From a virus (taxonomy: Duplodnaviria; Heunggongvirae; Uroviricota; Caudoviricetes): 57,958 nucleotides of DNA. This document shows positions 2,922-50,646 of this stretch, piece after piece. The notes beneath the pieces were generated by a model. The model searched no databases, was not told the origin of the DNA, and was given only the letters and a program-made list of their open reading frames with translations. Location of the stretch: positions 1-57,958 of IMG/VR virus record IMGVR_UViG_2778261152_000005; one strand, written 5' to 3'. Every line of letters begins with the position of its first letter. Positions within the stretch are counted from its first letter, which is position 1. A program made the position numbers and the translations under genes.

Positions 2922-4286
2922 TTGAATCTTATAGAAAAATCATCATTTTCTATGCGTCACAATCAATTTTCACATTACAAACGCTCCGACACTTTAGCCG
3001 GAGATTTTATGAGATACAAGCCTAACCAATACTTAATCTGTGATTCTTACGGTAACTACTATTTAAGGATAACGCTGCCTGTGTATATGCAGCCCTTTTT
3101 TGAAGGAAAAAGGACGTTTGTCAGAAGTCTACACACAAGTAATCTTCGTGTTGCACGTAGAAAGCGTGATCAGATTGCAGATGAATACCATTGCTTACGG
3201 GAGAGTGTCGCCCCTGTAAACAGCACAATAGAAAACACGCTGGAACTGTTACGCAGTAAGGCTAAATACGCCAAAACAGCTACCAGAATGCAAGATACAG
3301 CGTCTTCGTGTCCGTCATTGCTTAAAATTCTTGAAATCTACCTGACAATTAACAGCACGAAGAAGAAGCCAGCCACTTTAGCTAAGGCAAGAAAAGCGGT
3401 AGAGATGTTTCTCTCCTACCGTAAAAAGCCTGATATTGCATTGCAAGATGTAAGCCGCACCACTGTTACAGGCTGGATTGAACACATGCAAAAAACCCTT
3501 TCACAACAATCAATTGCAAATTATATCAGCCCAATGGCCCAGCTATGGGAATTAGCTTCATCACGTTACCACGATGCGCCAGAAAGGGCGCTCTCCCCCT
3601 GGCGAGGGCATAGGCTTGATGTGGCACAAAGTAGAGAGAGCTACGAGGCATTTTCTAACAAAGAGCTATTGCAGGTGTTGCAAGTATTTTCCGGTGATTC
3701 AGCAGAAAACAAAGAAATGATGGCTTTGTGTCTTATCGGTGCCTATACAGGTATGCGGATCAATGAGATAGCAAGTCTCACAATAGACGATGTGAAAGAG
3801 ATCGAAGGTGTGCTGTGTTTTGAAATCACACAGGGAAAGACGAAAGCAGCGGCACGTGTTGTGCCTGTACATAGCCTTATCACTCCGTTGGTGTTGTCGC
3901 TGCGTGAAAAGCCTCACAATGGCTTTTTGTTCTATCACGCCAGCATTACAGAGCGTGCTGATGGTAAACGTTCCACGTGGCATACGCAGAGATTTACAAG
4001 AGCTAAACGAAAGGCTTTAGGGGAAAAGGGAACAGAAAGGAAAGTGTTTCATTCTCTGAGACACGGAGTAGCACAGCTTCTTGATCGAAATCAAATTCCA
4101 GAAGACAGGATCGCCCTTCTCCTGGGCCATACACGCGGCAATACAGAAACATTCCGCACATATAGCAAGAATGCAGCTTCTCCAGTAGAGCTTAAAAAAT
4201 ATATTGAGCTTTTACGCTACCCTGAAATAGAGAAAGGCTTATCAATCAATAAAAAATCAAATTTAAGGCGTAAAACAACACTGTAG
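2922..4286 (+). CDS. Tyrosine-type phage integrase
   Basis: ORF begins 55 bp after the att repeat; catalytic-region motifs …HSLRHGVAQLL… and …LLGHTRGNTETFRTYSK…; listed start is TTG at 2922, alternative ATGs at 2952 and 3009 (the latter with a GGAGA Shine-Dalgarno). Confidence 0.85.
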   Translation: MNLIEKSSFSMRHNQFSHYKRSDTLAGDFMRYKPNQYLICDSYGNYYLRITLPVYMQPFFEGKRTFVRSLHTSNLRVARRKRDQIADEYHCLRESVAPVNSTIENTLELLRSKAKYAKTATRMQDTASSCPSLLKILEIYLTINSTKKKPATLAKARKAVEMFLSYRKKPDIALQDVSRTTVTGWIEHMQKTLSQQSIANYISPMAQLWELASSRYHDAPERALSPWRGHRLDVAQSRESYEAFSNKELLQVLQVFSGDSAENKEMMALCLIGAYTGMRINEIASLTIDDVKEIEGVLCFEITQGKTKAAARVVPVHSLITPLVLSLREKPHNGFLFYHASITERADGKRSTWHTQRFTRAKRKALGEKGTERKVFHSLRHGVAQLLDRNQIPEDRIALLLGHTRGNTETFRTYSKNAASPVELKKYIELLRYPEIEKGLSINKKSNLRRKTTL

Positions 4287-13671: not shown

Positions 13672-14229
13672 ATGAAAATGGCTAATATTGGATACATTAG
13701 GGTATCGACTGTCCAACAAAACACAGACCGTCAATTAGCTGGAGTAACTCTTGATAAAGTCTTTGAAGATAAAGCGTCAGGCAAGAATACCCAGCGCCCA
13801 CAGTTTGAGGCAATGATGAACTATGTGCGTGAAGGTGATGTTTTGCATGTTCACAGCATTGATCGACTTTGCCGTAATACAGCCGACCTACTGGCAACGG
13901 TTGAGCAATTAACAGAGCGCGGCGTGTCTGTGCATTTCCATAAAGAAGACTTTAAGACAGGGAAGAACTCTCCCGCAGGGAATATGATGCTCACAGTGCT
14001 TGCAGCAGTGGCACAAATGGAACGTGAAATGATGCTTGAGCGGCAACGTGAAGGGATCGCCGCAGCTAAGGCCGCTGGACGTATAGCAAAACGTGGTAAT
14101 GGAAAAGCAATTGATCGAGCGGGAATTGTTGCCGCTCTCGCGAATGGTGGATCAATTCGGAGCGTAGCAAAAGATTTCAGTGTCAGCACACAGACGGTGC
14201 AACGTATCAAGAAAGAGCAGGAAGCGTAA
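13672..14229 (+). CDS. Serine recombinase (resolvase/invertase family)
   Basis: N-terminal …GYIRVSTVQQNTDRQ… catalytic-serine motif and C-terminal HTH (…SIRSVAKDFSVSTQTVQRIKK…). Confidence 0.85.
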   Translation: MKMANIGYIRVSTVQQNTDRQLAGVTLDKVFEDKASGKNTQRPQFEAMMNYVREGDVLHVHSIDRLCRNTADLLATVEQLTERGVSVHFHKEDFKTGKNSPAGNMMLTVLAAVAQMEREMMLERQREGIAAAKAAGRIAKRGNGKAIDRAGIVAALANGGSIRSVAKDFSVSTQTVQRIKKEQEA

Positions 14230-17051: not shown

Positions 17052-18041
17052 ATGAACCGTATTGGCTGGATCTCATTAACTAGAGTAATAGCAGTAACAT
17101 TTATCGTAATGCTGCATTCTGCCTCATTCTATTTCAATAATTTTGATATTGGTGTTTTTGGCTGGGAAGTTGGGAATCTTGGTAATGCGGTTAGTAGATG
17201 GGGGGTTCCAGTTTTCATTATGCTATCAGGGGCTTTATTACTAAATAATAACAATTCGAATGACTACGCCTCTTTTTACAAACGCAGGCTCTCTAAGATA
17301 CTTATACCACTTATTTTCTGGTCTATCTTTTATTCTGCGATATGGCTTTTCCAGAATAAAGGTGACGCCACTATTTACGAAGCTTTAATAAATATTATAA
17401 GTGGACATCCGTTCTATCATATGTGGTTTATGTATATGATTCTTGGACTATACGCATTTACACCTTTGTTCAGGAAAATTGCATCTGTAATAGAAGATAA
17501 AGAAGCAACTTACTTAATCACCACTGTATTTATGCTTTCTGCCGTATGGATAAGTAATAAATACATAGCTGATGCTCATGATCCATTGTGGTTTTTCTGG
17601 TTCATTCAATACATTCCGTATTATTTTGCGGGGTATTATATTTCAAAATCATCTAGAAACATAAAGCCGACTCTTCTATTAATTGTAACGATTATAACCG
17701 TAGCAGCCACTTTTATAGCCACACATTACGCCTCGGTACAGTTTGGTAAGACTCAATACTTCTACGAACCGTTATCCCCTTTCATTATTATAATGTCATT
17801 GTGTGTATTTTGTTTATTCAAAAGGTGGAATTCAGGATTCTCCGACTCTCTCGCAAATTTAAGTTTAGGTGTTTATTTAATTCACCCTTTCTTTTTGCTG
17901 GCCTTCTTTAAGGTGTTTAAGGGGTTTGCAATGTCGTGGCCTCTTATGGGTTTTATTTGTGCGTGGATTATTTGCACAGTACTGTCTTTTGCTTCGACCT
18001 TCATTATCAAAAAAGTTAAATATTTAAATGTGATAGTGTAG
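17052..18041 (+). CDS. Acyltransferase family 3 membrane protein (O-antigen acetylase-like)
   Basis: 329 aa, multiple hydrophobic segments, N-terminal …RVIAVTFIVMLHS… typical of Oac/OafA-type acyltransferases; opposite strand to flanking phage genes. Confidence 0.75.
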   Translation: MNRIGWISLTRVIAVTFIVMLHSASFYFNNFDIGVFGWEVGNLGNAVSRWGVPVFIMLSGALLLNNNNSNDYASFYKRRLSKILIPLIFWSIFYSAIWLFQNKGDATIYEALINIISGHPFYHMWFMYMILGLYAFTPLFRKIASVIEDKEATYLITTVFMLSAVWISNKYIADAHDPLWFFWFIQYIPYYFAGYYISKSSRNIKPTLLLIVTIITVAATFIATHYASVQFGKTQYFYEPLSPFIIIMSLCVFCLFKRWNSGFSDSLANLSLGVYLIHPFFLLAFFKVFKGFAMSWPLMGFICAWIICTVLSFASTFIIKKVKYLNVIV

Positions 18042-20054: not shown

Positions 20055-21665
20055 TTAATAATCGACTTCGACCTCATGGTCTCCGTCACTTAACTGCCAA
20101 TGTTCCCGCGACTGTCCGGTCGGAATCCCGACCACTTTACCGATACGCACAGGCGTTGCACTAACCGCCCCCGCACCTGAATCAATGAAATCGTCTGGCT
20201 GTGTTGTCAGCGCCGGGTTGAAGTCACGCATTTGATCATACATTGGGCCATCCAGAACATCTGAGTGTGCCCACAAGAAACTAGACGAAAGCGGCGCTTC
20301 AAATGCGTCGAGGATGCGCTTCTGCTTATTCGTAACGCTGAATTCCTCCCTGACACCGCAGCCAGTTCCCTTAAGCGCCTGACGCAACAGCTTACCGGCG
20401 AATGACCCGGGGCCGTTTACTTCCACGCAGACAACGGGGATCTGATATTTAAGGACAAGCTCTTTAATCTGTATTACCTGACCGCCAGTTATTTTGTCAT
20501 TGGAGTCGAACTCCGCAAGGTCGCCCGTTAACGCCTGACAGATATGCCAGTAGAGGTGGCCTCGCGCATCCGTGAGTACCAGAGAAAACGCTGAAGCGTC
20601 GGCCTTCACCTTACCTGTTGCAACATCCCACCAGGCAACGGCACCGACAATCTGCACGTTACCAAGCCACATCGACGCGGTGCGGTTTGCATAGCGAATT
20701 TCCGGATGGATGTTGTACTCCCGGATGCGCTCAGGATCGAGACGAACGTCGCCAACGGGCTTGCTGTGCAGCTGATACTGGCTATCCCACTCGTTGACCG
20801 TACGACATTCTTTTCGACGCAGCTCTAACTCGTCATGATCAAATCGCTCAGGCCAGGCGCATCCGGCATAGAAATCAATAACCGTATCCGGTGCCGCAGC
20901 AAACTCCACGCCGTCGGCAGTCAGCTTATAGTCAACGTCTTCGACCAGCAGGCTGGCCGCTTTATGGATCCCTGCAAAAACGTACTCTGGCCGGAACGGA
21001 ATAACATAGCGCAGCTGCGTGGCGTCTTTCGCCTCGATGCGCTTTTCTTTCTCAAACAGCTTTATGGTCAGACAGTCAGCGCCTGCCGATTCCATTTCAT
21101 CGTAGAGGCTGTCATGTGTGTGCGGCGTACCAATAAAAAGTTTTCGCCCGCCGGGGATCAGGATGTGAGTCTGCTCGCTCAGGCGATAACGCAACTTTTC
21201 TCGCGCCTCCGGCGTCTGAATATTGCCCGGGACTTCCACGTCGTCATTCTGGCACTCGTTAGCGCGGGCGCCGGTGACGTTCGACAGGATACCTTTTGCG
21301 AACATGCTGGCGTTACGCATATCCAGCGAACCATTAACCCACCATTGTTCGACCGTGCCGATCCCGTCGGGCAACATGCCTTTTGTCAGGGGGTGGTTGC
21401 GTAAAACGTTCTGTGTATCGCGGCTGGTTTTGCGCGCTGTGGAGTCCGATTCTGACTGGTGCAGAATACGGTACTGGCGATCGCAGTAGTATCGCCAGGC
21501 ATTATAGACGCCCAAAATAGTGGATTTACCGAAACCACGGAAACAGCGAAGCACCGCGAGGTTTCCGCGATGCTCCAGCCAGTGGCAGGCTTGATAATGG
21601 CAGTCCGGAACGTCCCAGTTCATCCGCTCCGCCCACATTAAAAAGAAGGCGAGGAACGAAATCAT
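20055..21665 (-). CDS. Terminase large subunit
   Basis: 536 aa; Walker-A-like …RGFGKSTIL… near N-terminus; follows a small terS-like gene. Confidence 0.7.
   Translation of the reverse strand: MISFLAFFLMWAERMNWDVPDCHYQACHWLEHRGNLAVLRCFRGFGKSTILGVYNAWRYYCDRQYRILHQSESDSTARKTSRDTQNVLRNHPLTKGMLPDGIGTVEQWWVNGSLDMRNASMFAKGILSNVTGARANECQNDDVEVPGNIQTPEAREKLRYRLSEQTHILIPGGRKLFIGTPHTHDSLYDEMESAGADCLTIKLFEKEKRIEAKDATQLRYVIPFRPEYVFAGIHKAASLLVEDVDYKLTADGVEFAAAPDTVIDFYAGCAWPERFDHDELELRRKECRTVNEWDSQYQLHSKPVGDVRLDPERIREYNIHPEIRYANRTASMWLGNVQIVGAVAWWDVATGKVKADASAFSLVLTDARGHLYWHICQALTGDLAEFDSNDKITGGQVIQIKELVLKYQIPVVCVEVNGPGSFAGKLLRQALKGTGCGVREEFSVTNKQKRILDAFEAPLSSSFLWAHSDVLDGPMYDQMRDFNPALTTQPDDFIDSGAGAVSATPVRIGKVVGIPTGQSREHWQLSDGDHEVEVDY
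20118..20133. promoter_or_regulatory. Copy b of the GGTCGGAATCCCGACC motif, inside the 3' end of terL about 85 bp upstream of the tail-fibre gene
   Basis: Perfect 16-nt palindrome. Confidence 0.45.
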
Positions 21666-22000
21666 TTTTCGCCTTTCTGAAGGCGTTTGATAATGGCGGC
21701 CGCTTCACGTTCAGCCTCATTGACCCGCTGACCCAGTTCGAATTCTTCATCAACTTCACCGGGTTTCGGGGGAACTCCGCCGCGTGTATGCATACCAATA
21801 AGAGAATGCACCTTAATCAGCAGCGTCAGCGAAGCCGCAGCGTTCTTCTTGTCCCAGTAGCGGTCGCCGCGCTCCTGCTTTGTCAATGCATTGACGCGTT
21901 TATTACCGCCAGCCCAGTTGTCCGGGTCGGCTTCTTCGAGCACCACGTCAGTGAGTTTATCGCTCAGAGCAGTAAGGCGTGTTTTGTAATCCTGATGCAT
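21662..22000 (-). CDS. Putative terminase small subunit (T7 gp18-like position)
   Basis: 112-aa ORF overlapping terL start by 4 nt. Confidence 0.4.
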   Translation of the reverse strand: MHQDYKTRLTALSDKLTDVVLEEADPDNWAGGNKRVNALTKQERGDRYWDKKNAAASLTLLIKVHSLIGMHTRGGVPPKPGEVDEEFELGQRVNEAEREAAAIIKRLQKGEK

Positions 22001-33403: not shown

Positions 33404-35025
33404 TGGTTACCTGCCAGTCGTTGTCCTATTGCCGCGCCTGCGGTCTGTCCTGCTGCTCCTGCTGCCTCAGTGCCCGCCTGCATCATGAGTTGCTGCTGTG
33501 CGGCCTGCTGTTGTGCTTTCTGACGTTGGTCGCGGAGATCCGCCACCGCATCGGATGAGCGAATAACCTTCGCCGGAACGCCGAGCGCATCAGCCACAAC
33601 GCGCGTGGCCTCGTCGGTATCGATGAGATCAACAACGTCCTGGCTGATACCAGCGAGATTTGCCACATTTGCGCCGAGGCGCTCAATAGCAGTTACGTCT
33701 TCCAGCTTCTGGGCACGCGCCAGCGGGGAGATGTAACGCACGTTGAAATTGGCGTTTTGCAGGCTCTCAGGCGGCGGGGAGAAAACGCCAGCGCGGAAAG
33801 CGATGCCAAAGCAGCGCACCACAAGCAACTGGAGATATTCAGCCTGGAAGCGGCCATACACCGGGCCAAGCAACTGACGAATCAGTGCTACGCGCACGTG
33901 AACTTCGGTGGCGGTCATGGCTGGCCCATCCTGCGGTTGCAACTGGTCCGCCATCATGATTTTGCGGATTGATGCCTGCAGACGTTCTTCAGCGGTGAAA
34001 GCAACGTTGAAATCTGCGCCAGTCAGCAACGGTTTCATGCTGTCGGTGCTGTTCGCCACGATGATACGACGCGGGCCGACCTTGACCGTACGCGGGTTTA
34101 GTACGCCGTCGTCTTCGGCAATCCACATGCCGGAGATAGCCAGATCCTGCGCAGCTTTCTCCATGCGTTTGGTTTCGTTCAGCTCTTTGCAATCTGGCAG
34201 CGCGTCGTATACCGGTCCGATGCCGTAGGAGCCACCAGGGATTTTCATCCAGCGCGGAACGCAGCACGGGAATTCGTGATAGCCGGATTCGCGCACCACC
34301 TGCTTGTTAGTCACGTCGACGTTGAATGACGCAAAGCGCATGTTCTTCGCCAGACGGGCATCGACCATGTAGGTTTCGCGCGGGAAAATGCAGTGCAGGA
34401 AATCAAATTTATCGTCGGGCTTTTTCTTCGCCGCGTCGCGGATCTTCTCGCTGACCTTGTCCGCGCCGAATTCTTTGATGGCCTGTTCTGCGGTCAGCTG
34501 GTAGCGGCGGTATATCGTGTCCACAATGCCATCCTTGCGGGTGGACGTGACATAGCACTGCGCCAGCGGCCACTGCTGGAAGGTGTAGCCGCCCTCGTCA
34601 CGGTCCTCGTCGATGTACAGGACGAACCAGCCAGCGCATACCACGTCGAGGTTTGCCTCGTAGCCCTCTGCGTCAAAGTTGGCCGCATGGATGTTTTCCC
34701 AGACCAGCGTTGCGCACTCTGACAACCAGGCTTTGGCGTCGTCCGGCAGCGATTCGCTGTCGAGGTTCAGCCATTGCGCGTTCGCCGGGGTCATGCCGGA
34801 CATGAGCGCAGAGGCCAGCATGCGGGCGCTGTCGGTGGCGGTACCGTCCAGTAGCTTCGCCACCTTGTGTTTTGCGCTCTGAGCGTCGAGCACTTCATCA
34901 GAGAATCCCGCGCCGCGCAGCGGATAGGTGTAGTCATAGCACTCGCGCCAGACGCTTTCATGCTGCTGGCGGTTGGCCTTCAGCGTGTCGGAACGCCTAA
35001 TCAGCTTAACGGCGAGTTCATCCAT
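33400..35025 (-). CDS. Portal (head-to-tail connector) protein
   Basis: 541 aa, size and position match T7 gp8; Gln/Ala-rich C-terminus. Confidence 0.6.
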   Translation of the reverse strand: MDELAVKLIRRSDTLKANRQQHESVWRECYDYTYPLRGAGFSDEVLDAQSAKHKVAKLLDGTATDSARMLASALMSGMTPANAQWLNLDSESLPDDAKAWLSECATLVWENIHAANFDAEGYEANLDVVCAGWFVLYIDEDRDEGGYTFQQWPLAQCYVTSTRKDGIVDTIYRRYQLTAEQAIKEFGADKVSEKIRDAAKKKPDDKFDFLHCIFPRETYMVDARLAKNMRFASFNVDVTNKQVVRESGYHEFPCCVPRWMKIPGGSYGIGPVYDALPDCKELNETKRMEKAAQDLAISGMWIAEDDGVLNPRTVKVGPRRIIVANSTDSMKPLLTGADFNVAFTAEERLQASIRKIMMADQLQPQDGPAMTATEVHVRVALIRQLLGPVYGRFQAEYLQLLVVRCFGIAFRAGVFSPPPESLQNANFNVRYISPLARAQKLEDVTAIERLGANVANLAGISQDVVDLIDTDEATRVVADALGVPAKVIRSSDAVADLRDQRQKAQQQAAQQQLMMQAGTEAAGAAGQTAGAAIGQRLAGNQ

Positions 35026-35028
35026 CAG

Positions 35029-35259
35029 TTACGCCCCCAGAGTGTTTTTCTGCTGCGCTGCCTGCGCGCCAGAGGACAGCAGAGAGCTGCCAGAATCAGC
35101 TGCACCCTCTGCACCACTGGCGAGAAGGGACGAGCCTTTCTTGCGCTTCTTGCGCGCTGCTGCATCTGCGTTTGCCGCTTTTGCCGCTGCGTCGGCAGCT
35201 GCATCCGCTTCGGCCTGCGGGTCGGTCTGTACGACCTTAGGTGCTCCACCTCCACACAT
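35029..35259 (-). CDS. Hypothetical small Ala-rich protein (alternative frame 35025-35255 also open)
   Basis: Two overlapping small ORFs; frame choice uncertain. Confidence 0.25.
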   Translation of the reverse strand: MCGGGAPKVVQTDPQAEADAAADAAAKAANADAAARKKRKKGSSLLASGAEGAADSGSSLLSSGAQAAQQKNTLGA

Positions 35260-35271
35260 AGCGATCCCCTC

Positions 35272-35691
35272 TTAGCCCGGAACGTGCCAGCCGTGCTCAG
35301 TCAGAACGGGCTTACCCGTAACCGGCTGGCGTTTGCCCTCGTCGTTCGTCACGTAGCCCAGCGGCGCGGCAGGCTCCGCCGTGGTGGCTTTTTTGACGAG
35401 CTGGAGGAATTCGATATTGTCAGTGAGCTGCTGGTCAGCCAGGTCGGTGTACCCCAGCGTTTCAAAGCGGGCGATGATGGCCGCGCCCTGCTCGTTGATG
35501 GTACCCAGCAGAGTATTGCGCTCAGTGAGCGCGGCATCGTCCAGCAGGGTAGAAACGCGCTGCTGGATAACTTCCTGCTCAGCACGGGGCTTCTCCTGCG
35601 TTACGCCTTCACCGGTGGTGTCTGAAATCAGGTCTGCGCCCGTTGCGGACTCCTGCCCGGGGACTTCAACAGTTTTCTTCTGTCGTGCCAT
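35272..35691 (-). CDS. Hypothetical protein, first gene of the structural operon (139 aa)
   Basis: Start at Met 35691 with AGGAG 10 nt upstream; the longer track ORF would run through motif copy e. Confidence 0.4.
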   Translation of the reverse strand: MARQKKTVEVPGQESATGADLISDTTGEGVTQEKPRAEQEVIQQRVSTLLDDAALTERNTLLGTINEQGAAIIARFETLGYTDLADQQLTDNIEFLQLVKKATTAEPAAPLGYVTNDEGKRQPVTGKPVLTEHGWHVPG

Positions 35692-35739
35692 TGTGGTGGC
35701 TCCTGTGATGATTGAGCCGTAAGTGTGAAACGAGGTCGC

Positions 35740-35755
35740 GGTCGGAATCCCGACC
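35740..35755. promoter_or_regulatory. Copy e of the GGTCGGAATCCCGACC motif, about 50 bp upstream of the first structural gene
   Basis: Perfect palindrome. Confidence 0.45.
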
Positions 35756-35968
35756 AAATGGAAGATTTGTTAAAAAACGGCCTGATTTAACATAATGTAC
35801 GTTATCGGCACCGCGCGATCGGCACTCGTTACCGATTTAGCGTGAAGAGGTTATTTGTTGCGGTTTGCTGGCGGGAAGGGACGAAAAATGACTGCATAAA
35901 TCGTGCATAAAACAGGGCGGTTTTTGCATAGTGTTTTTAACCGATGAACGCCCTGTTTTTGCAAGTTT

Positions 35969-36244
35969 TCATGGTGCCAGACGCTTCGATCGCCAGGCGT
36001 AAACGAAACGCCGTGATGTTACCTGCGCGGGCAGTTCGGAGCGTGGGCGCTGCGTGACGTAACACCAGAAGTCTATCAGCGCTTCGCCTGTGTGGTGGTT
36101 CGGTGCTGCGCCCTGCTTCCAGCCGATGATAGCAGACTTCGACACGTCGAGCTCTCTGGCAATCTCCTGCAGGGGAATACCGCTGCGCGTGATGTCGTTA
36201 ATCACCCGGAACCAGTCTGTTTTGAACGTTGCGACAACAGGCAT
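35969..36244 (-). CDS. Putative HTH DNA-binding protein (91 aa)
   Basis: …GIPLQEIARELDVSKSAIIGWKQG… HTH-like; sits between the origin-like repeats and the structural operon. Confidence 0.4.
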   Translation of the reverse strand: MPVVATFKTDWFRVINDITRSGIPLQEIARELDVSKSAIIGWKQGAAPNHHTGEALIDFWCYVTQRPRSELPAQVTSRRFVYAWRSKRLAP

Positions 36245-36377
36245 AGGTCACCCCCCAAAACGCGCGCACGCGCGAGCATAGAGAGCGATTTTATTGAGCT
36301 TCTGGCGCTCGTTAATCACCGTGGTGGAATCTAATCGTGTTTGCATATCGCTACCCGCAATAAATTACTTGTTCGAC

Positions 36378-36558
36378 GTGTAACCACCTGTAACCACTGT
36401 AACCACCATCTTCTTAACCTTTCCCTGAACGACTTATATATATATATGGGGTTTTTAGAAAATAGGTGGTTACAGTGGTTACAGTGGTTACAACCCTTTA
36501 AATTCAATTAGTTAAAGCGTAACCACCTAAGCGTTGTAGGTGGTTACAGGTGGTTACA
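36378..36558. promoter_or_regulatory. Origin-like region: about 10 copies of GTAACCAC/GTGGTTAC in direct and inverted arrays flanking a (TA)n tract
   Basis: Three direct TGTAACCAC copies, an AT-rich TATATATATATAT stretch, three GTGGTTACA copies, a GTAACCACCTA…TAGGTGGTTAC palindrome and further copies; abuts the primase gene end. Confidence 0.55.
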
Positions 36559-38721
36559 CAGATACCCAAACGCGTTGCACTTTGCCGTTAACACGCCTCA
36601 AAACTCGCGAATAGCCGCAATTTTGCAAAACATTGCTAATTCGCATTTCTTCACGTTTTCCGATGTGGCTGGGATTTAAGCCAATCGCATCGCGCAGGAC
36701 GTCACTAGCGCGTAAAAATTCGCAATTTCGCGGAATGTCGTTAGTCATCAGGTCTGGAGTGTCGAGCCATTTCTCTACCGTTTCGAGCCACGCATCCTTA
36801 ATGGTGTACTGCTCGTGGACACTCGCACCGAGCCGCTCAGCGTCGCGGAACTGGATACCGCCGAGGCGCTTAAACGTCTCGCGAGCCTCAGCCCACAGCA
36901 GCAGCAAATCGCGCTTAATGGCCTGCACATCGACTTTCGACACCTCAACGGGCAACCATCGGCGGTTACCGGTCTTGTCCGCGAGGAACTCATCCTCGTT
37001 GGTGGTACCGACGAACACCAGGCGACGCGGGAACTGCGTGGCGAACTCCCGGTATTTGGGGATCCAGTTCTCATGCGTACGCGTCACGAATGCCTTGATG
37101 GATTCCAGCTCTTTGGTATTGAGGCCGCGCAGCTCGCCAATCTCAGCCACCAGGCGCCCGCGCATCTTGCGTGCGAGATCGTCGTCTTTCTCAGCGAAAG
37201 AAATCTCAGTGAAGAACGCCGGATCGGGGCTCAGCGCTTCCACGCCGGAGGATTTACCGCAGCCCTGCGGACCGACGAGGATCGGCACCATATCGGCTTT
37301 AACTCCGGGCTCCAGCACCCTGCCCGCCAGCGCAGTCCACATGTACATGGATACTGCGCGGGTGTATGGCGTGTCGGCGGTACCGAAGTGCGTATGGTAG
37401 AAAGTTTCGATACGCGGTACGCCGTCCCACTCCAGCCCGTTCAGCCAGGTTGTCGCCGAGTCAAACGGCTGTTCGTCAGCAGCCAGCAGCACCACGTCGC
37501 GAATGAGCTCGCGCCCCACAGGTTTAAAGCCGCGCTTTTCCATCGTGATGCGCAGGCGCGCATAGTCCGCATCGGTGAACGCCTGCCACTGGCCGGAGCC
37601 TGCCGGGGCGAACATGATTTCGTCGCGGAACTGGTCAAAGCGGATATCTATGTCCACAAAGTCAGGACGCACAACGGCTTTGGCCGCGTTGCTGATAGTA
37701 GCCTCGATGCGGCCCCACTTATCGCGTTCGAACGCCGGCAGCGGTAACGGCTCGGCCACTTCGGTGCTGGTCAGGTCTTCGAAATCGTCGTTACGAATAC
37801 CGATGGCGTTAAGGAAATCGCCGTCATCGCGGTGCGCACAGCTGGCGTGCAGGCACTTGAAATGGCCCTGCTCAAAGCCCGCGGTACCGCCCGGGAAGTA
37901 AACTGTGCTCGTCGGGTCGCCGCCGGTGCTGTGGCCGTCTTCGAACGGGCAGCGGATGTATCGCTCGCCGTTCGCACCATCAAGCAGCGTCCAGCCATTG
38001 GCATCGAGGTATTCCGCCGTATCGTCCGTGGCACCGGGCGTGAAGGTTGAACGGTCGCGCATCTTCGTGCTGCCCGCTTCGGTGGTGACTGACACAGGCA
38101 GCTGTTCCGCCAGGCGCTGCCACAGCGTTTCGAGCTGGTCAGCAGTTATGGCTGGAGGCTCGCCCGGCAGACCGCCGTCCCATTCAATACGCGCGCCGCT
38201 GCTATGCGTACCACAGGCAACGAACTGCTGCCCGTTCGCCAGCAGCTCGATAATCCCCATATCACCCGCCAGACGGTGGATGCGCTTACGGAAATCGCCG
38301 TCAACGGCCAGCAGGTACAGGCATTTGTTGCTGTTGGCGCGCCAGCGACGCGGCGGCAGCTCGCCCAGCGCTGCACCAGCGTTTTGCGAATATCGGCCTG
38401 GACGTCTTCGTCTTCGCTGTCGCAGTCCAGCGCAAGCCAGCCATGACCTGTACGCACGCAGATGCCGTAATCCGGTTCGTTTGACCAGCGGGCAAAGTCA
38501 TGCTCAGTGACTACATGCTCGGTCCAGTCTTTAATCCCGGTAGCCAGGCGGTCGCGGTTATACAGGCTCGGCGTTTTGCCGAGCATTTTGAGTTTGCTAT
38601 TCGGGGATATGGTAGCGCCCGGGTTGCACATGACCGGCAGCAGCTGGTCAGTACGCCCCAGCACCAGATCGAAGTGGAACCATTCGTCAGGCGTCGCCCC
38701 CCAGATCTTTTTCTCTGGCAT
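36554..38721 (-). pseudogene. Primase-helicase (Prim-Pol N-terminal domain plus P4/VirE-type P-loop domain) split by a frameshift near 38364-38366
   Basis: Upstream ORF (38146-38721) carries Prim-Pol-like …GICVRTGHGWLALDCDSEDED…; downstream ORF (36554-38260) carries …GPQGCGKSS… Walker A; frames join at a C3/G3 run where one extra G would restore …LVQRWGELPPRRW…. Confidence 0.55.
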
Positions 38722-38724
38722 GGG

Positions 38725-38955
38725 TTACGCCTTTTTATCGTTTTGTGAGCCGTGCAGCAGCCAGTTGGGGTCGCAATCAAGCGCAACGGAAATTTCAAGA
38801 AGATAACGCGGGCGGGAGATAACACCACTTTCGATCCTGTTGATGGCCTGCTGACTAACCCCTGTTAGCTCAGCCAGCGTGACCTGCGTCATTTTGAGTT
38901 CCTTACGTCGCTCTTTTAATCGGGTAGCCAGAGTCATAGTTATTACCTCATACAA
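38725..38955 (-). CDS. Cro-like XRE-family HTH regulator
   Basis: 76 aa, …LKMTQVTLAELTGVSQQAINRIESG…; divergent from the cI-like repressor. Confidence 0.6.
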   Translation of the reverse strand: MYEVITMTLATRLKERRKELKMTQVTLAELTGVSQQAINRIESGVISRPRYLLEISVALDCDPNWLLHGSQNDKKA

Positions 38956-38991
38956 TTTTAGTGGTATTTAGCAACAACTAATGGTGTTTGT

Positions 38992-39014
38992 CAAATACAA
39001 CAAAAATTGTATTT
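38992..39014. promoter_or_regulatory. Operator-like palindrome in the cI/cro intergenic region
   Basis: AAATACAA-CAAAAA-TTGTATTT inverted repeat. Confidence 0.35.
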
Positions 39015-39057
39015 AATAGAGGAAGGCTATAATTTCAACTCATACAAGGTATTAAAA

Positions 39058-39681
39058 ATGTCTCTCTCAGCACGCTTTAAAGCCCGCCGTCTCGAACTAG
39101 GAATGACACAAGTAGAGGTCGCAAACGCTGCGGGGGTTAGCCAACAATCTATCGAGTCAATCGAAAGCGGAAGAACTCGAAAGCCACGTAACCTTTTAGA
39201 CCTGGCTAAAGCGTTAAAATGTAGCCCGGACTGGCTTCTGAATGGTAAAAACATCATGCCACTCACTGAGATCAGCACCCGAAGAATCCCTGTATTGAGT
39301 TATGTACAGGCTGGCTGCTTAACTGAAGCAAGGGAAGTTACCGATCTGACTGGGGATTTCGAGTATGTACTGGCAGACTCCGACGTACCAGAGACATGCT
39401 TCGCGCTGCGCATTGATGGTGACAGTATGCAGCCAGAATTTAAGGAAGGGGATATTGTAATTATTGACCCTGACTTATGCCCCACACCTGGAGAATTTGT
39501 CGTTGCCAAGAATGGCGGCCACGAAGCGACTTTCAAAAAGTATCGTCCTTTAGGGATTGGCATAGACGACTTCGAACTGGTGCCACTTAATCCTGACTAT
39601 CCGGTTTTACGTAGCGCCGACATGAAGTTGCAAATCATCGGGGTGATGATTGAGCACCGCATTTACCGCCGTAAACGCTAA
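39058..39681 (+). CDS. CI-like repressor (HTH plus LexA/S24-type peptidase domain)
   Basis: N-terminal HTH (…LGMTQVEVANAAGVSQQSIESIESG…) and C-terminal S24-like region (…ALRIDGDSMQPEFKEGDIVIIDP…FVVAKNGGHEATFKKY…); start taken at ATG 39058. Confidence 0.75.
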   Translation: MSLSARFKARRLELGMTQVEVANAAGVSQQSIESIESGRTRKPRNLLDLAKALKCSPDWLLNGKNIMPLTEISTRRIPVLSYVQAGCLTEAREVTDLTGDFEYVLADSDVPETCFALRIDGDSMQPEFKEGDIVIIDPDLCPTPGEFVVAKNGGHEATFKKYRPLGIGIDDFELVPLNPDYPVLRSADMKLQIIGVMIEHRIYRRKR

Positions 39682-39697
39682 CAACCCTACCTTCTCA

Positions 39698-39716
39698 GGA
39701 GAGCCAATGGCTCTCC
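39698..39716 (+). terminator. Hairpin after the cI-like gene
   Basis: GGAGAGCC-AATG-GCTCTCC perfect stem; weak T-tract. Confidence 0.3.
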
Positions 39717-39798
39717 CCTATCTTACTTGTAAAATCTTACCAACTAAATTCATTTAAATATCAATAAGGTGGTATTCCTTTACTGAAAAATACCACAT

Positions 39799-40110
39799 TT
39801 GTGGTTTACACAATACAACTCAAATTGTAGATTTAACCACAAGTCGAACGGCGCGACTCTAAACCATGCGTCGGAACCGTGGCGGGACAGGATGTCGGCA
39901 ATACGGGTTAGTGAATTAATCAAAGGCTTCGGGCCTTTTACTAATCCACTGAATGAGGCCACTCCTATGAGCAAACAAGAGTTAATCGGCTTTCTGATGA
40001 ACCGCTACAACGTTTCCTGGCGTGTGGCAGAAGATGCTTTAAGAGATAACGACTGGGGTCTGATGATGGCCGCCGGCGATATTCGCGACGAGCTGGCCGC
40101 CGAAGTTTAA
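39799..40110 (+). CDS. Hypothetical protein (start uncertain; internal Mets at 39892 and 39967)
   Basis: ORF-track frame; no recognisable motif. Confidence 0.3.
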   Translation: MWFTQYNSNCRFNHKSNGATLNHASEPWRDRMSAIRVSELIKGFGPFTNPLNEATPMSKQELIGFLMNRYNVSWRVAEDALRDNDWGLMMAAGDIRDELAAEV

Positions 40111-49202: not shown

Positions 49203-49387
49203 CACCGGTTATCTCTGACACTGACCTGATTAACATCAAAGAGGTTGAGCGCTCTGTTGGCCTGAAAAAATCCAGCATTTATGAGCGCATCAGTAATAAC
49301 GAGTTTCCGAAGCCTAAGAAGCTCGGGAGCCGAACCTCCCGCTGGGTACGCGGCGAGGTCGAAGAGTGGAAAAAACAGTTTCTTTAA
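49199..49387 (+). CDS. AlpA-family transcriptional regulator / excisionase
   Basis: 62 aa, …LINIKEVERSVGLKKSSIYERISNNEFPKPKKLGSRTSRWVRGEVEEW…; convergent with the integrase. Confidence 0.7.
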   Translation: MTPVISDTDLINIKEVERSVGLKKSSIYERISNNEFPKPKKLGSRTSRWVRGEVEEWKKQFL

Positions 49388-50646
49388 ATCAAACGAAGCT
49401 GGTCAATATAATCCGCATACCACTGCATCATTTCCCGACGCCCTTCCATATACAGGGCATGGTTATAAACCCCGCGTATATTGTTCTTGTCCACGTGGGC
49501 GATCTGGAGTTCAACCCAGTCAGAGTTGAATCCTTTATCGTTCAGGATAGTGCTGAACGTATGCCGGAAGCCATGCCCTACTACCCTCCCCTTATACCCC
49601 AGCGTGTGGATCATCCTGTTTATTGTGTTCTCGCTCATGACCTTTGACGGGTCATTCCTGCCGGGGAACATATTCACGTATCGACCTGTCAGCCCGTGCA
49701 GTTCTTTTAGCAAGACGACAAGCTGATCGGAAAGAGGTACCAGGTGCGGGCGGTCCATCTTCATAAATTCGGCGGGTATCTCCCACAGCCGATTATCGAA
49801 ATCTACCCATTCCCATTTTGAATGCCGCAGTTCGTAAGTACGCAGCCCCGCCAGCATCATGATCTGCAACCCCAGCCGGGGCAGCGGGCTCCCCTTGTAA
49901 CTCTCAAGCGCCGCGAGAAAATCAGGCAGTTCCTCCGCCGTCAGGAACGGGAAGGACTCTCCTTTATGCCCGGTCATTGCGCTATTCAGTTCGCTGACGG
50001 GGTTATACTTCGCGCGCCCAGTCGCAACTGCATAGCTGAATACTTCACCGCACCACCGGCGCGTTTTGGCTGCTTTCTCGGTTGCGCCGCGATTCTCAAT
50101 TTTGCGCAGTGCCCTCAGCATCTGGACAGGCTCGATTTCAGCAACTGGCAGCTTACCCACCGCTGGGAAAATATCTTTGTTGAATGCTTCGAGAATGTCA
50201 GAGGCATAGCCAGGCGACCAGCGCGGCTTCTTGAATTCATGCCATTCTATCGCGATCTCTTTTAACGTGATCGTCTTTACTGCCGCAGCTGCGGCATGGC
50301 TTTTGACTTTTACCGGGTCAACACCTGCCGCAACGTTACGCCGGGCCTCGTCGCGTTTTTCGCGAGCGGCCGCCAGCGAAACAGCCGGGTATACCCCGAG
50401 CGCCAGCATCTTTTCTTTACCGGCGAAAGTATAGCGATAGCGCCAGTATTTTGCCCCGCTGGTTTTCACCAGCAGGATAAGCCCGTTGCCGTCTGGCAGC
50501 TTATAGTCTTTCTCGGCAGGCTTTGCCGTCTCGACCTGTCGCGCGTTTAGTTTCATAGGTACCCGCCTCAAACTCAGATACCCGATTATGTACCCGTTTT
50601 TAATTTGGATTGCAACGGCAAAAGGTGGATTATGGCGGACAAACAA
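49384..50646 (-). CDS. P4-type tyrosine integrase
   Basis: 420 aa; N-terminal arm-binding pattern (…LPDGNGLILLVKTSGAKYWRYRYTFAGKEKMLALGVYP…) and C-terminal …GHGFRHTFST…; next to the tRNA-Thr 3' fragment. Confidence 0.85.
   Translation of the reverse strand: MFVRHNPPFAVAIQIKNGYIIGYLSLRRVPMKLNARQVETAKPAEKDYKLPDGNGLILLVKTSGAKYWRYRYTFAGKEKMLALGVYPAVSLAAAREKRDEARRNVAAGVDPVKVKSHAAAAAVKTITLKEIAIEWHEFKKPRWSPGYASDILEAFNKDIFPAVGKLPVAEIEPVQMLRALRKIENRGATEKAAKTRRWCGEVFSYAVATGRAKYNPVSELNSAMTGHKGESFPFLTAEELPDFLAALESYKGSPLPRLGLQIMMLAGLRTYELRHSKWEWVDFDNRLWEIPAEFMKMDRPHLVPLSDQLVVLLKELHGLTGRYVNMFPGRNDPSKVMSENTINRMIHTLGYKGRVVGHGFRHTFSTILNDKGFNSDWVELQIAHVDKNNIRGVYNHALYMEGRREMMQWYADYIDQLRLI

What the first reader, a model, noticed from the sequence alone, without database searches (positions are those of the whole stretch)
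36378..36558. Dense GTAACCAC/GTGGTTAC repeat arrays around a (TA)n tract next to the primase gene: probable prophage origin
About ten copies of a 9-bp motif in direct and inverted sets flank an AT-rich unwinding-type element immediately downstream of the primase-helicase gene. This is the classic organisation of an initiator-bound origin.
Basis: seen in the sequence. Interest (0 to 1): 0.55.

Follow-up and report, generated by a model that had tools for sequence, protein, structure and literature searches.

The report
Prophage replication origin with matched iterons
The repeat cluster is very probably the replication origin of an APSE/YeP4-like prophage, built like the origins of staphylococcal and E. 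coli phage satellites and read by the tail end of the neighbouring primase-helicase; it is a known kind of origin, though here the primase gene carries a frameshift.

Summary
Nine exact GTAACCAC copies lie in 36379-36558; the whole 58-kb window has 12, against 1.1 expected. They form three sets around a T(AT)6 tract, and the outermost set overlaps the stop codon of a VapE-type primase-helicase gene.

The same layout sits downstream of that gene in about 90 related loci. These include Yersinia phage YeP4, Hamiltonella phage APSE-1, and prophages of Enterobacteriaceae, Xenorhabdus and Photorhabdus. The 57-bp core is conserved. The 10-bp repeat differs between otherwise 91-99% identical phages, giving at least nine types, and all copies change together.

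Repeat type tracks three residues (V-Q-R here) in the beta-hairpin wing of a predicted winged-helix domain at the helicase C-terminus. It does not track the downstream 91-aa HTH gene, and tracks the CI repressor only weakly. The helicase core matches the SaPI initiator PriRep1 (PDB 7pds).

Best reading: a self-loading SF3 helicase origin of the SaPI/PICI kind, in a complete temperate phage.

The binding domain is C-terminal, not N-terminal. The window's primase gene has a 1-nt deletion, so this copy may not fire on its own. Origin function is inferred, not shown.

The parts
36379..36407 (+). Iteron set C: three copies of TGTAACCAC(C/T) on the + strand (inverted relative to the primase-sense strand), at a 10/9-nt period. 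This is the distal arm flanking the core.
   Evidence: Present as 2-3 copies in 82 of 84 close relatives.
36408..36464 (.). 57-bp core spacer between the inner iterons. It holds the T(AT)6 tract at 36435-36447, flanked by a short CCC/GGG inverted repeat. It is the presumed DNA-unwinding element.
   Evidence: Spacer length is 57 bp in 65 of 84 loci and 55-57 bp in 80 of 84. The sequence is nearly invariant across iteron types, whereas the iterons vary. GC is 35-37%.
36465..36492 (-). Iteron set B: three tandem copies of TGTAACCAC on the primase-sense (minus) strand at a 9-nt period. It points toward the core, head-to-head with set C.
   Evidence: The 9,9 spacing is found in all 48 relatives that have three copies.
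36493..36517 (.). AT-rich 25-bp spacer between sets B and A.
   Evidence: A similar spacer is present in the relatives.
36518..36558 (.). Iteron set A: one copy on the + strand (36518-36527) and two on the - strand (36539-36558). Read in the primase sense this is two direct copies plus one inverted. It overlaps the primase stop codon at 36554-36556.
   Evidence: The 2+1 arrangement occurs in most of the 84 relatives. In several iteron types the primase C-terminal tail is encoded by these copies.
36560..36613 (-). Coding sequence of the beta-hairpin wing (YSRVLRRV-NG-KVQRVWVS) of the C-terminal winged-helix domain. The specificity tripeptide V-Q-R is encoded at 36572-36580.
36554..38721 (-). 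Primase-helicase gene: an AEP-like N-terminal region, a VapE SF3 helicase and a C-terminal winged helix. It is split by a 1-nt deletion between 38370 and 38369 into ORFs 38146-38721 and 36554-38260.
   Evidence: Pfam VapE-like domain, E = 9e-61. PHROG helicase and primase families. Relatives are intact at 722-732 aa. Deletion located by alignment. Adding one T restores a 722-aa ORF.
36288..36315 (-). Sigma-70-like promoter match (TTAACG-16-TAAAAT) between the origin and the next gene. It is a neighbour of the origin, not shown to be part of it.
   Evidence: one site found, against 0.7 expected by chance, so this is weak evidence.

Best explanation
This is the replication origin of a complete temperate phage (about 15.5-50.6 kb of the window) related to Yersinia phage YeP4 and Hamiltonella phage APSE.

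Proposed mechanism. The phage's primase-helicase binds the 9-10-bp iterons through its C-terminal winged-helix domain. The invariant recognition helix probably reads the constant CMACC half of the iteron. Three wing residues (V-Q-R here) probably read the variable TGTAA half. Sets B and C face each other across a fixed 57-bp core. This would let two helicase rings assemble head-to-head, melt the (TA)6 tract without a separate loader or DnaA, and prime on the exposed strands with the N-terminal primase. The phage's own PolA and SSB would then take over. Set A, at the gene's stop codon, is probably an auxiliary loading or recruitment site.

What is shown and what is inferred. Shown: the anatomy, its conservation, the concerted switching of the iterons, the wing-iteron correspondence, and homology to the SaPI initiator. 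Inferred: binding, melting, bidirectional firing, and the division of labour between helix and wing.

In this particular prophage the primase gene is frameshifted. Unless that is a sequencing error, the origin may be silent, or may fire only if an initiator of the same specificity is supplied in trans.
For: 1. Significant, tightly clustered repeats next to the helicase gene, in an AT-rich gap.

2. The same three-set layout lies 3' of the homologous gene in YeP4 and APSE-1, with different motifs: AGACAACCT and GTAACAACC. It also occurs in loci from IMG/VR and GTDB genomes. Spacer and periods are fixed.

3. Variation is concentrated at iteron positions 3-5 and 7, while the core is invariant. Divergence between near-identical phages is confined to a cassette of about 250-300 bp, made of the wing codons plus the iterons.

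4. The wing tripeptide maps onto iteron type as follows:
- VQR = TGTAACCACC
- VLK = TGTATCCACC
- LMK = TGTTACCACC
- K[SC]K = TGGAACCACC
- [MV]TR = TGTACCAACC
- KMR = TGTCCCAACC
- QQR = CTAGACAACC
- QIR = CTAGACCACC
It explains 87% of iteron-type entropy (z = 25 against permutation). The same pairs recur in backbones with only 62-78% identical C-terminal domains.

5. The 91-aa HTH gene downstream shows no association (z about 0). In loci with the same iteron type it is replaced by a Q antiterminator gene.

7. Published SaPI and PICI origins are sets of short iterons in opposite orientation, flanking an AT-rich region immediately 3' of rep. They are bound by the Rep C-terminal winged helix without ATP or a loader (PMC9371898; PMC6092414).

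8. There are no DnaA-box, IHF or GATC motifs in 36200-36700, which fits a self-loading initiator.
Against: - No experiment on this element or on any member of this phage family was found, so origin function rests on analogy and covariation.
- The wing codons and the iterons are physically adjacent, so part of their association could come from co-inheritance of one recombination tract. The loci are also not phylogenetically independent.
- The correspondence is not strictly one-to-one. L079 carries VQR with mostly TGTTACCAC copies. KSK and KCK share one iteron type.
- The (TA)6-centred window is only in about the top 1-2.5% of least stable stretches of the window, not the least stable.
- The primase gene here is frameshifted.
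- The N-terminal primase assignment rests on PHROG hits and a sub-threshold Pfam Prim-Pol hit. That hit was not recovered with the repaired protein.
Confidence: 0.8

Rival explanations
1. The repeats matter as a large stem-loop or cruciform, not as protein-read iterons. This would be either a structure-dependent origin, as proposed for plasmid pRN1 and Bordetella phage BIP-1, or a transcription terminator or attenuator at the end of the primase gene.
For: As single-stranded DNA, the 196-nt region folds at -45.3 kcal/mol (z = -8.4), with sets B and C paired. In pRN1, a 100-nt stem-loop 3' of a prim/pol-SF3-winged-helix gene is required for replication, and a similar one was predicted in BIP-1 (PMC4234260).
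Against: - Each arm is itself three tandem 9-10-nt units, and the periods often differ between arms (9,9 against 10,10). In several types the middle copy of set C is degenerate with no matching change in set B. A stem under selection for pairing would not show this.
- Set A repeats the same unit outside the B/C pair.
- The unit tracks wing residues of a DNA-binding domain.
- No T-run terminator was found, and there is no Rfam family apart from spurious sub-threshold miRNA hairpin hits.
- This rival overlaps the main explanation, because a cruciform could assist an iteron origin.
Confidence: 0.08
2. The repeats are operators for a transcription factor (the CI repressor, Cro, or the 91-aa HTH protein encoded just downstream) that controls the switch from early to late genes.
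For: The array lies upstream of the 91-aa HTH gene, which PHROG 16553 labels a 'transcriptional repressor'. A weak promoter-like site lies between them. Repressor-operator pairs also diversify in phages. CI type shows a weak association with iteron type (z about 5).
Against: - The HTH91 sequence is unrelated to iteron type (z about 0). Its N-terminal part is identical in the window and in L022, L010, L044 and L031, which carry four other iteron types. Loci with a Q gene in its place keep the array.
- The CI-cro intergenic region (38956-39057) has no GTAACCAC copy. It carries a different palindrome, ATACAA...TTGTAT.
- The CI association is no stronger than that of other linked genes, and far weaker than that of the wing.
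- The array stays with the helicase gene in YeP4 and APSE-1, although their downstream modules differ.
Confidence: 0.05
3. The array is a packaging signal (pac or cos) recognised by the small terminase at the start of the structural gene block.
For: It sits between the replication genes and the portal, capsid and tail genes. Terminase small subunits often bind arrays of short repeats (general knowledge).
Against: - The large terminase gene (20055-21665) and the small ORF before it (21662-22000, the position where a small terminase gene would be expected; function unassigned) lie about 15 kb away, at the far end of the late operon.
- In APSE-1 the array is followed by Q, toxin and lysis genes, not by packaging genes.
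- The array tracks the helicase wing.
- Covariation with the terminase could not be tested, because the fetched flanks do not reach it.
Confidence: 0.04

Closest known systems
SaPI and PICI replication origins (Rep or Pri-Rep plus ori; S. aureus SaPI1/SaPIbov1/SaPI5, E. coli EcCICFT073)
   Same: The origin lies immediately 3' of the initiator-helicase gene. Sets of short iterons in opposite orientation flank an AT-rich region. The initiator is an SF3 (VapE-type) helicase with a C-terminal winged helix that reads the iterons, sometimes fused to a primase. Initiator-origin specificities differ between elements (PMC9371898, PMC6092414). The helicase core matches 7pds at E = 5e-33.
   Different: The carrier is a full temperate phage with its own portal, capsid, tail, terminase, PolA and SSB genes, not a satellite. 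The iterons are 9-10 bp rather than the 5-6 bp reported for SaPIs. There is a third set across the stop codon. Sequence similarity to PriRep1 is detectable in the helicase core only; the C-terminal domains match by fold alone. [quoted passage not shown]
Phage P4 alpha protein with ori and crr
   Same: One polypeptide carries primase, SF3 helicase and a C-terminal winged-helix origin-binding domain that recognises short repeats (PMC4234260, PMC2777425). From my memory, the P4 repeat is TGTTCACC, which resembles the TGTTACCACC type found in relatives.
pRN1 ORF904 replicon and the Bordetella phage BIP-1/BPP-1 replication protein
   Same: The protein has the order prim/pol, SF3 helicase, winged helix. 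The essential or predicted origin is a large inverted repeat directly 3' of its gene (PMC4234260, PMC2777425).
   Different: Those authors found no iterons and proposed recognition of a stem-loop. Here the arms are clearly iterated units that covary with the winged helix. The prim/pol assignment here is weak.
SV40 large T antigen and papillomavirus E1 origins
   Same: From general knowledge: an SF3 helicase-initiator with its own origin-binding domain, short repeats in inverted sets beside an AT-rich element, and double-hexamer assembly. PMC4234260 makes the same comparison for SF3 proteins.
   Different: This is a functional analogy only. The origin-binding domain fold differs, these viruses have no primase domain, and they are eukaryotic.
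Lambda ori (O/P) and iteron plasmids (RepA/Rep_3)
   Same: An element-encoded initiator binds repeated sites next to an AT-rich region.
   Different: From general knowledge: lambda's iterons lie inside the O gene, and lambda needs the P protein to load host DnaB. Plasmid iterons are about 17-22 bp direct repeats and usually come with DnaA boxes. Here the units are 9-10 bp, arranged in inverted sets downstream of the gene, with no DnaA box, and the initiator is itself a helicase.

Membership tests
SaPI/PICI-type origin (self-loading Rep helicase plus iterons) | Origin located immediately 3' of the initiator-helicase gene | tested here: met
   The array spans 36379-36558, and the helicase stop codon is at 36554-36556. 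The position is the same in YeP4, APSE-1 and about 90 loci.
SaPI/PICI-type origin (self-loading Rep helicase plus iterons) | At least two iterons on each side of an AT-rich region, pointing in opposite directions | tested here: met
   Three copies on each side of a 57-bp core holding T(AT)6, arranged head-to-head. GC is 35-37%.
SaPI/PICI-type origin (self-loading Rep helicase plus iterons) | Initiator is an SF3/VapE-type helicase homologous to SaPI Rep, with a C-terminal winged-helix domain | tested here: met
SaPI/PICI-type origin (self-loading Rep helicase plus iterons) | Cognate specificity between the initiator C-terminal domain and the iterons | tested here: inconclusive
   Computationally strong: the wing tripeptide explains 87% of iteron-type entropy, z = 25, and the pairs recur in divergent backbones. 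Physical linkage is a confounder, and there are no binding data.
SaPI/PICI-type origin (self-loading Rep helicase plus iterons) | A rep-ori segment drives autonomous replication; ATP-independent binding and melting | not testable with these tools
   Needs cloning, EMSA and permanganate footprinting.
PICI / phage satellite (as the carrier element) | Small island lacking a full set of virion genes and dependent on a helper phage | tested here: not met
   The element encodes portal, capsid, nozzle, tail fibre, large terminase, lysozyme, PolA, SSB, CI repressor and integrase across about 35 kb.
P4 alpha / ori-crr replicon | Bipartite cis elements: ori plus a distant second repeat cluster (crr) | tested here: not met
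   Outside 36379-36558 there are only three scattered single matches at <=1 mismatch, against 2.4 expected by chance. The crr requirement itself is taken from my memory of the P4 literature.
P4 alpha / ori-crr replicon | DnaG/Toprim-type primase domain and the P4-type origin-binding domain | tested here: not met
   No Toprim or DnaG Pfam hit. The N-terminus has only a sub-threshold Prim-Pol hit and PHROG primase families. No PDB sequence match to the P4 origin-binding domain.
pRN1-type replicon (prim/pol-SF3-winged-helix protein with a 3' inverted repeat) | Domain order primase, SF3 helicase, winged helix, with a large inverted repeat directly 3' of the gene | tested here: met
   Domain order. 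Inverted repeat with 20-nt perfect arms, and a fold z-score of -8.4. The prim/pol identity of the N-terminus is weak.
Iteron plasmid / lambda-type origins | Direct 17-22-bp iterons (or iterons inside the initiator gene), with DnaA boxes or a separate helicase loader | tested here: not met
   The units are 9-10 bp, in inverted sets downstream of the gene. No DnaA-box-like site at <=1 mismatch in 36200-36700.

The most novel reading that the evidence does not exclude
The wing-plus-iteron cassette may be a hot spot of diversifying change. On this reading it gives co-circulating, otherwise near-identical prophages mutually orthogonal origins, with at least nine specificities among primases that are 91-99% identical. 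That would amount to a replication-level immunity or incompatibility system. It could stop co-resident prophages or PICI-like satellites with the same origin type from firing or titrating each other's initiators. It would also offer a natural three-residue, wing-based code for winged-helix DNA recognition. A corollary for this window: a prophage with a broken primase but an intact origin could act as a decoy for, or be fired by, an incoming phage of the same VQR specificity.
Probability: 0.3. Interest if true: 0.6.

Novelty: new member of a known kind. Interest (0 to 1): 0.45.

Why it matters
- It assigns a likely origin to a widespread family of temperate phages of Enterobacterales. The family includes the APSE phages of aphid symbionts, for which the literature searches here found no described origin.
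- It shows that the origin design regarded as a hallmark of PICI satellites also occurs in complete phages. This bears on where satellite replicons came from.
- The family provides a ready-made series of matched initiator-origin variants that differ by three amino acids and two or three base pairs. That series could be used to dissect how self-loading SF3 helicases read their origins, and to build orthogonal replicons.
- For annotation: the small ORFs called across these repeats (for example APSE 'P4') are probably not genes, and this prophage's primase is a probable pseudogene.

Tried and rejected
- **Rfam scan of 35000-40000:** only two far-sub-threshold plant miRNA hairpin hits (27.7 bits against a gathering score of 140). 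These are artefacts of the inverted repeat.
- **Terminator scan:** none found. One weak promoter-like site.
- **DnaA box, IHF consensus and GATC in 36200-36700:** none.
- **Second iteron cluster (crr-like) in the window:** none.
- **Nearest-neighbour duplex stability:** the (TA)6 window is low in stability but not the minimum of the window (rank 462 of 57,938 for 20-bp windows). This is only weak support.
- **Small ORFs across the array (36331-36507 on the - strand, 36341-36511 on the + strand):** they translate to CNHCNH and WLQWLQ repeats and are artefacts.
- **The 105-aa ORF 38511-38828:** an out-of-frame overlap of the primase N-terminus. The real Cro-like gene is 38725-38955 (HTH_3).
- **Pfam on the repaired 722-aa protein:** did not recover the Prim-Pol hit.
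- **Literature searches** for an APSE or YeP4 origin, or for 'origin downstream of the primase' in phages: nothing specific.
- **tRNA scan:** no tRNA at the integration site.
- **Not tested:** covariation with the terminase, because the locus flanks are too short. E. coli PICI iteron sequences could not be compared, because they appear only in a figure.

Full report
**1. Observation**

The sequence at 36360-36560 contains nine exact copies of GTAACCAC/GTGGTTAC. The whole 57,958-bp window has 12 copies, against 1.12 +/- 0.91 expected from dinucleotide shuffles, and none of 100 shuffles reaches 12. Nine of the 12 fall in 36380-36557. With the 10-mer TGTAACCACC at <=1 mismatch, the same nine sites cluster. 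Only three scattered singles remain, which matches the chance expectation of 2.4.

The copies form three sets:
- Set C: 36379-36407, three direct copies.
- Set B: 36465-36492, three inverted copies at a 9-nt period.
- Set A: 36518-36527 plus 36539-36558, one direct and two inverted copies.

Sets C and B are separated by 57 bp containing T(AT)6 at 36435-36447. GC falls to 35-37.5% here, against 55-65% in the flanking genes.

**2. Genomic context**

All local genes run on the minus strand. ORF 36554-38260 carries a VapE-like SF3 helicase domain (Pfam E = 9e-61) and matches PHROG helicase and primase families. Its stop codon lies inside set A.

Further along the minus strand come:
- a 91-aa HTH protein (35969-36244; PHROG 'transcriptional repressor');
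- a T7-type portal, a capsid and a nozzle protein;
- about 15 kb further on, the large terminase (20055-21665), a tail fibre gene and a lysozyme gene.

On the other side of the primase gene lie:
- a Cro-like HTH gene (38725-38955) and a CI/LexA-like repressor (39007-39681);
- a + strand operon with a DUF2800 nuclease, an SSB, a family A DNA polymerase, a methyltransferase and an SNF2 helicase;
- an integrase (49384-50646).

The element is therefore a complete temperate phage of about 35 kb, not a satellite.

Its nearest named relatives are Yersinia phages YeP4/5/6 and the Hamiltonella APSE phages. Near-identical proteins are annotated from Enterobacter hormaechei, so the host is probably an Enterobacter-like enterobacterium.

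**3. The primase gene is broken in this window**

In relatives the gene is one ORF of 722-732 aa. In the window it is split into 38146-38721 and 36554-38260. Alignment with three close relatives shows a single missing T between 38370 and 38369 (CAGC-GCTGG against CAGCTGCTGG). This is not a homopolymer run. Restoring the base gives an intact 722-aa protein. The deletion cuts through the N-terminal primase region. It is either a real inactivating mutation or an assembly error, and I cannot tell which.

**4. Comparative anatomy**

The intergenic region after the homologous gene has the same architecture in YeP4 and APSE-1, but with a different repeat: AGACAACCT and GTAACAACC respectively.

I fetched 106 loci encoding relatives of the helicase, from IMG/VR and GTDB genomes. 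The genomes include Trabulsiella, Pluralibacter, Pectobacterium, Xenorhabdus, Photorhabdus, Symbiopectobacterium, Sodalis, Gilliamella and some betaproteobacteria. Nearly every locus with enough downstream sequence has an 8-mer repeated 5-11 times just after the gene.

In the 84 loci that share the conserved core:
- the inner B-to-C spacer is 57 bp in 65 loci and 55-57 bp in 80;
- set B has a 9,9 period wherever three copies are present;
- set A is two direct copies plus one inverted in most loci;
- the TA tract is 10-16 bp long.

The core sequence ACTAAGAACCCCA(TA)6AGTCGATTTGGGGAAAGGTTAGAAA is nearly invariant. Variation is concentrated at iteron positions 3-5 and 7.

Among primases that are 91-99% identical there are at least nine iteron types: TGTAACCACC (the window), TGGAACCACC, TGTTACCACC, TGTATCCACC, TGTACCAACC, TGTCCCAACC, CTAGACAACC, CTAGACCACC and TGAAGCCACC.

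Within a locus the copies conform to one unit, apart from single-base variants and, in several types, a degenerate middle copy in set C; the sequences between them stay the same. Pairwise identity profiles show that divergence is confined to about 250-300 bp, made of the last codons of the primase plus the iterons. The flanks on both sides are 90-100% identical. Concerted change of dispersed copies around a fixed core is what is expected of sites read by one sequence-specific protein whose specificity has changed.

**5. Which protein reads the repeats**

Alignment of the last 330 residues of the primase-helicase shows that the two most informative columns not encoded by the iterons themselves are adjacent residues in the motif G-K-x-x-x-[VI]-[WF]. 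The tripeptide maps onto iteron type as follows:

| Wing tripeptide | Iteron |
|---|---|
| VQR | TGTAACCACC |
| VLK | TGTATCCACC |
| LMK | TGTTACCACC |
| K[SC]K | TGGAACC[AG]CC |
| [MV]TR | TGTACCAACC |
| KMR | TGTCCCAACC |
| QQR | CTAGACAACC |
| QIR | CTAGACCAC[CT] |

The tripeptide explains 87% of iteron-type entropy (z = 25 against permutation).

The same pairs recur in backbones whose C-terminal 150 residues are only 62-73% identical to the window's:
- QQR in YeP4;
- KCK in a Photorhabdus prophage;
- MTR, VTR or MVR in Xenorhabdus, Photorhabdus and Symbiopectobacterium prophages.

Other candidates do much worse. The 91-aa HTH protein shows no association (z about 0). Its N-terminal part is identical in the window and in L022, L010, L044 and L031, which carry four other iteron types. 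In loci such as L027 it is replaced by a Q antiterminator, while the array, of the same iteron type as in L009, remains. CI shows only the weak association expected of linked genes (z about 5). Its own operator region carries a different palindrome and no iteron copy.

Caveats:
- The wing codons lie within 200 bp of the iterons, so linkage contributes to the association.
- The loci are not independent.
- L079 has VQR with mostly TGTTACCAC copies.

**6. Structure and homology**

The only PDB sequence match is 7pds, the SaPI PriRep1 helicase solved with dsDNA (E = 5e-33 over the helicase core).

An AlphaFold2 model of the last 170 residues was built from a 25-sequence alignment. It is confident (pLDDT about 90) over the last ~80 residues. 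These form three helices followed by a beta-hairpin, which is a winged helix.

The covarying tripeptide sits on the second strand of the wing. The recognition helix (REEMRISNVLQNC) is invariant across the TG-type iterons. I infer, without proof, that the helix reads the constant CMACC half of the iteron and the wing reads the variable half.

**7. Mechanism and comparison with known systems**

For SaPIs, the literature describes Rep or Pri-Rep helicases that act as their own initiators through a C-terminal winged helix. The iterons lie immediately downstream of rep. Half of them sit on each side of a central AT-rich region, and at least two per side point in opposite directions. No loader is needed, and ATP is not required for binding or melting (PMC9371898).

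Gram-negative PICIs have the same layout, and a cloned pri-rep-ori segment replicates autonomously. [quoted passage not shown]

For pRN1 and Bordetella phage BIP-1, a prim/pol-SF3-winged-helix protein with a large inverted repeat 3' of its gene has been proposed as a self-contained initiation system (PMC4234260, PMC2777425).

The window's element meets the anatomical and protein-homology criteria of the SaPI/PICI origin type, but sits in a complete phage. It fails the P4 criteria: there is no second cluster and no DnaG-type primase. It also fails the lambda and plasmid-iteron criteria. There are no DnaA-box, IHF or GATC motifs, which fits self-loading.

The most likely mechanism is therefore as follows. 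Winged-helix domains dock on sets B and C, and two helicase rings assemble head-to-head. The rings melt the (TA)6 core. The N-terminal domain then primes, and the phage's own polymerase extends. Set A would serve as an auxiliary site.

**8. Rivals**

- *Pure stem-loop element.* The region has strong hairpin potential. However, the arms are iterated units with unequal periods and uncompensated degenerate copies. No terminator or known RNA family is present.
- *Transcription-factor operators.* Rejected by the tests described in section 5.
- *Packaging site.* Unlikely, because the terminase genes are 15 kb away and the array follows the helicase gene into genomes with different downstream modules. 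Terminase covariation could not be tested.

**9. Verdict**

Two corrections apply: the binding domain is C-terminal, and the primase gene is frameshifted.

It is a new member of a known kind of origin. The added value is twofold. The design also occurs in complete APSE/YeP4-like phages. These phages also carry a clean natural series of matched wing-iteron specificities. Function remains inferred.

Noticed in passing
window 38369-38370 (within 36554-38721, minus strand): There is a single-base deletion in the primase-helicase gene relative to the more than 80 relatives whose full-length gene was captured. It splits the gene into ORFs of 191 aa and 568 aa. Restoring one T gives an intact 722-aa protein. 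The context is not a homopolymer, so it may be a genuine pseudogene.
   Followed up: yes
L002 (APSE-1, NC_000935.1) 3754-3975; APSE-2 3460-3580: The annotated APSE gene 'P4' (conserved hypothetical protein) lies directly over the iteron and (TA)n region. It is probably a spurious ORF call across the origin. APSE-1 also has an extra mirrored 2+1 iteron set on the far side of the core.
   Followed up: partly
P0014 (Klebsiella pneumoniae protein, 238 aa, 11 member sequences); also P0036: This is a chimeric protein. The N-terminal ~125 aa are a Q antiterminator (PF06323). They are fused in frame to the complete primase C-terminal winged-helix domain (92% identical to the window; wing type LMK). 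It could be a deletion remnant, or a free-standing origin-binding protein.
   Followed up: partly
L008, L013, L027 compared with the window (35969-36244): The gene immediately after the origin is swapped between relatives. Some have the 91-aa HTH protein, others a Q antiterminator (PF06530). The conserved sequence between origin and gene is exchanged along with it.
   Followed up: partly
L008, L011, L018, L095: These origins are mixed. Set A (and the middle copy of set C) is GTAACCAC, while sets B and C are GTATCCAC. This suggests tolerance of single-base variants, or stepwise conversion between specificities. The TGTATCCAC unit also resembles a DnaA box (TTATCCACA).
   Followed up: no
window 2922-4286, 13672-14229 and the AT-rich stretches at 9.0-13.0 kb: A second tyrosine integrase and a serine resolvase lie left of the prophage, among ORFs with no family match. 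The least stable DNA of the window is also here. This may be a separate integrated island next to the prophage.
   Followed up: no
window 17052-18041 (+): An acyltransferase-3 family gene lies between the lysis genes and the tail fibre gene, on the opposite strand. It is a likely O-antigen-modifying lysogenic conversion gene.
   Followed up: no
window 38956-39057: The CI-cro divergent region carries its own palindromic motif (AATACAAcaaaaaTTGTATT, and catacaa repeats). These are presumably the immunity operators and are unrelated to the origin iterons.
   Followed up: partly
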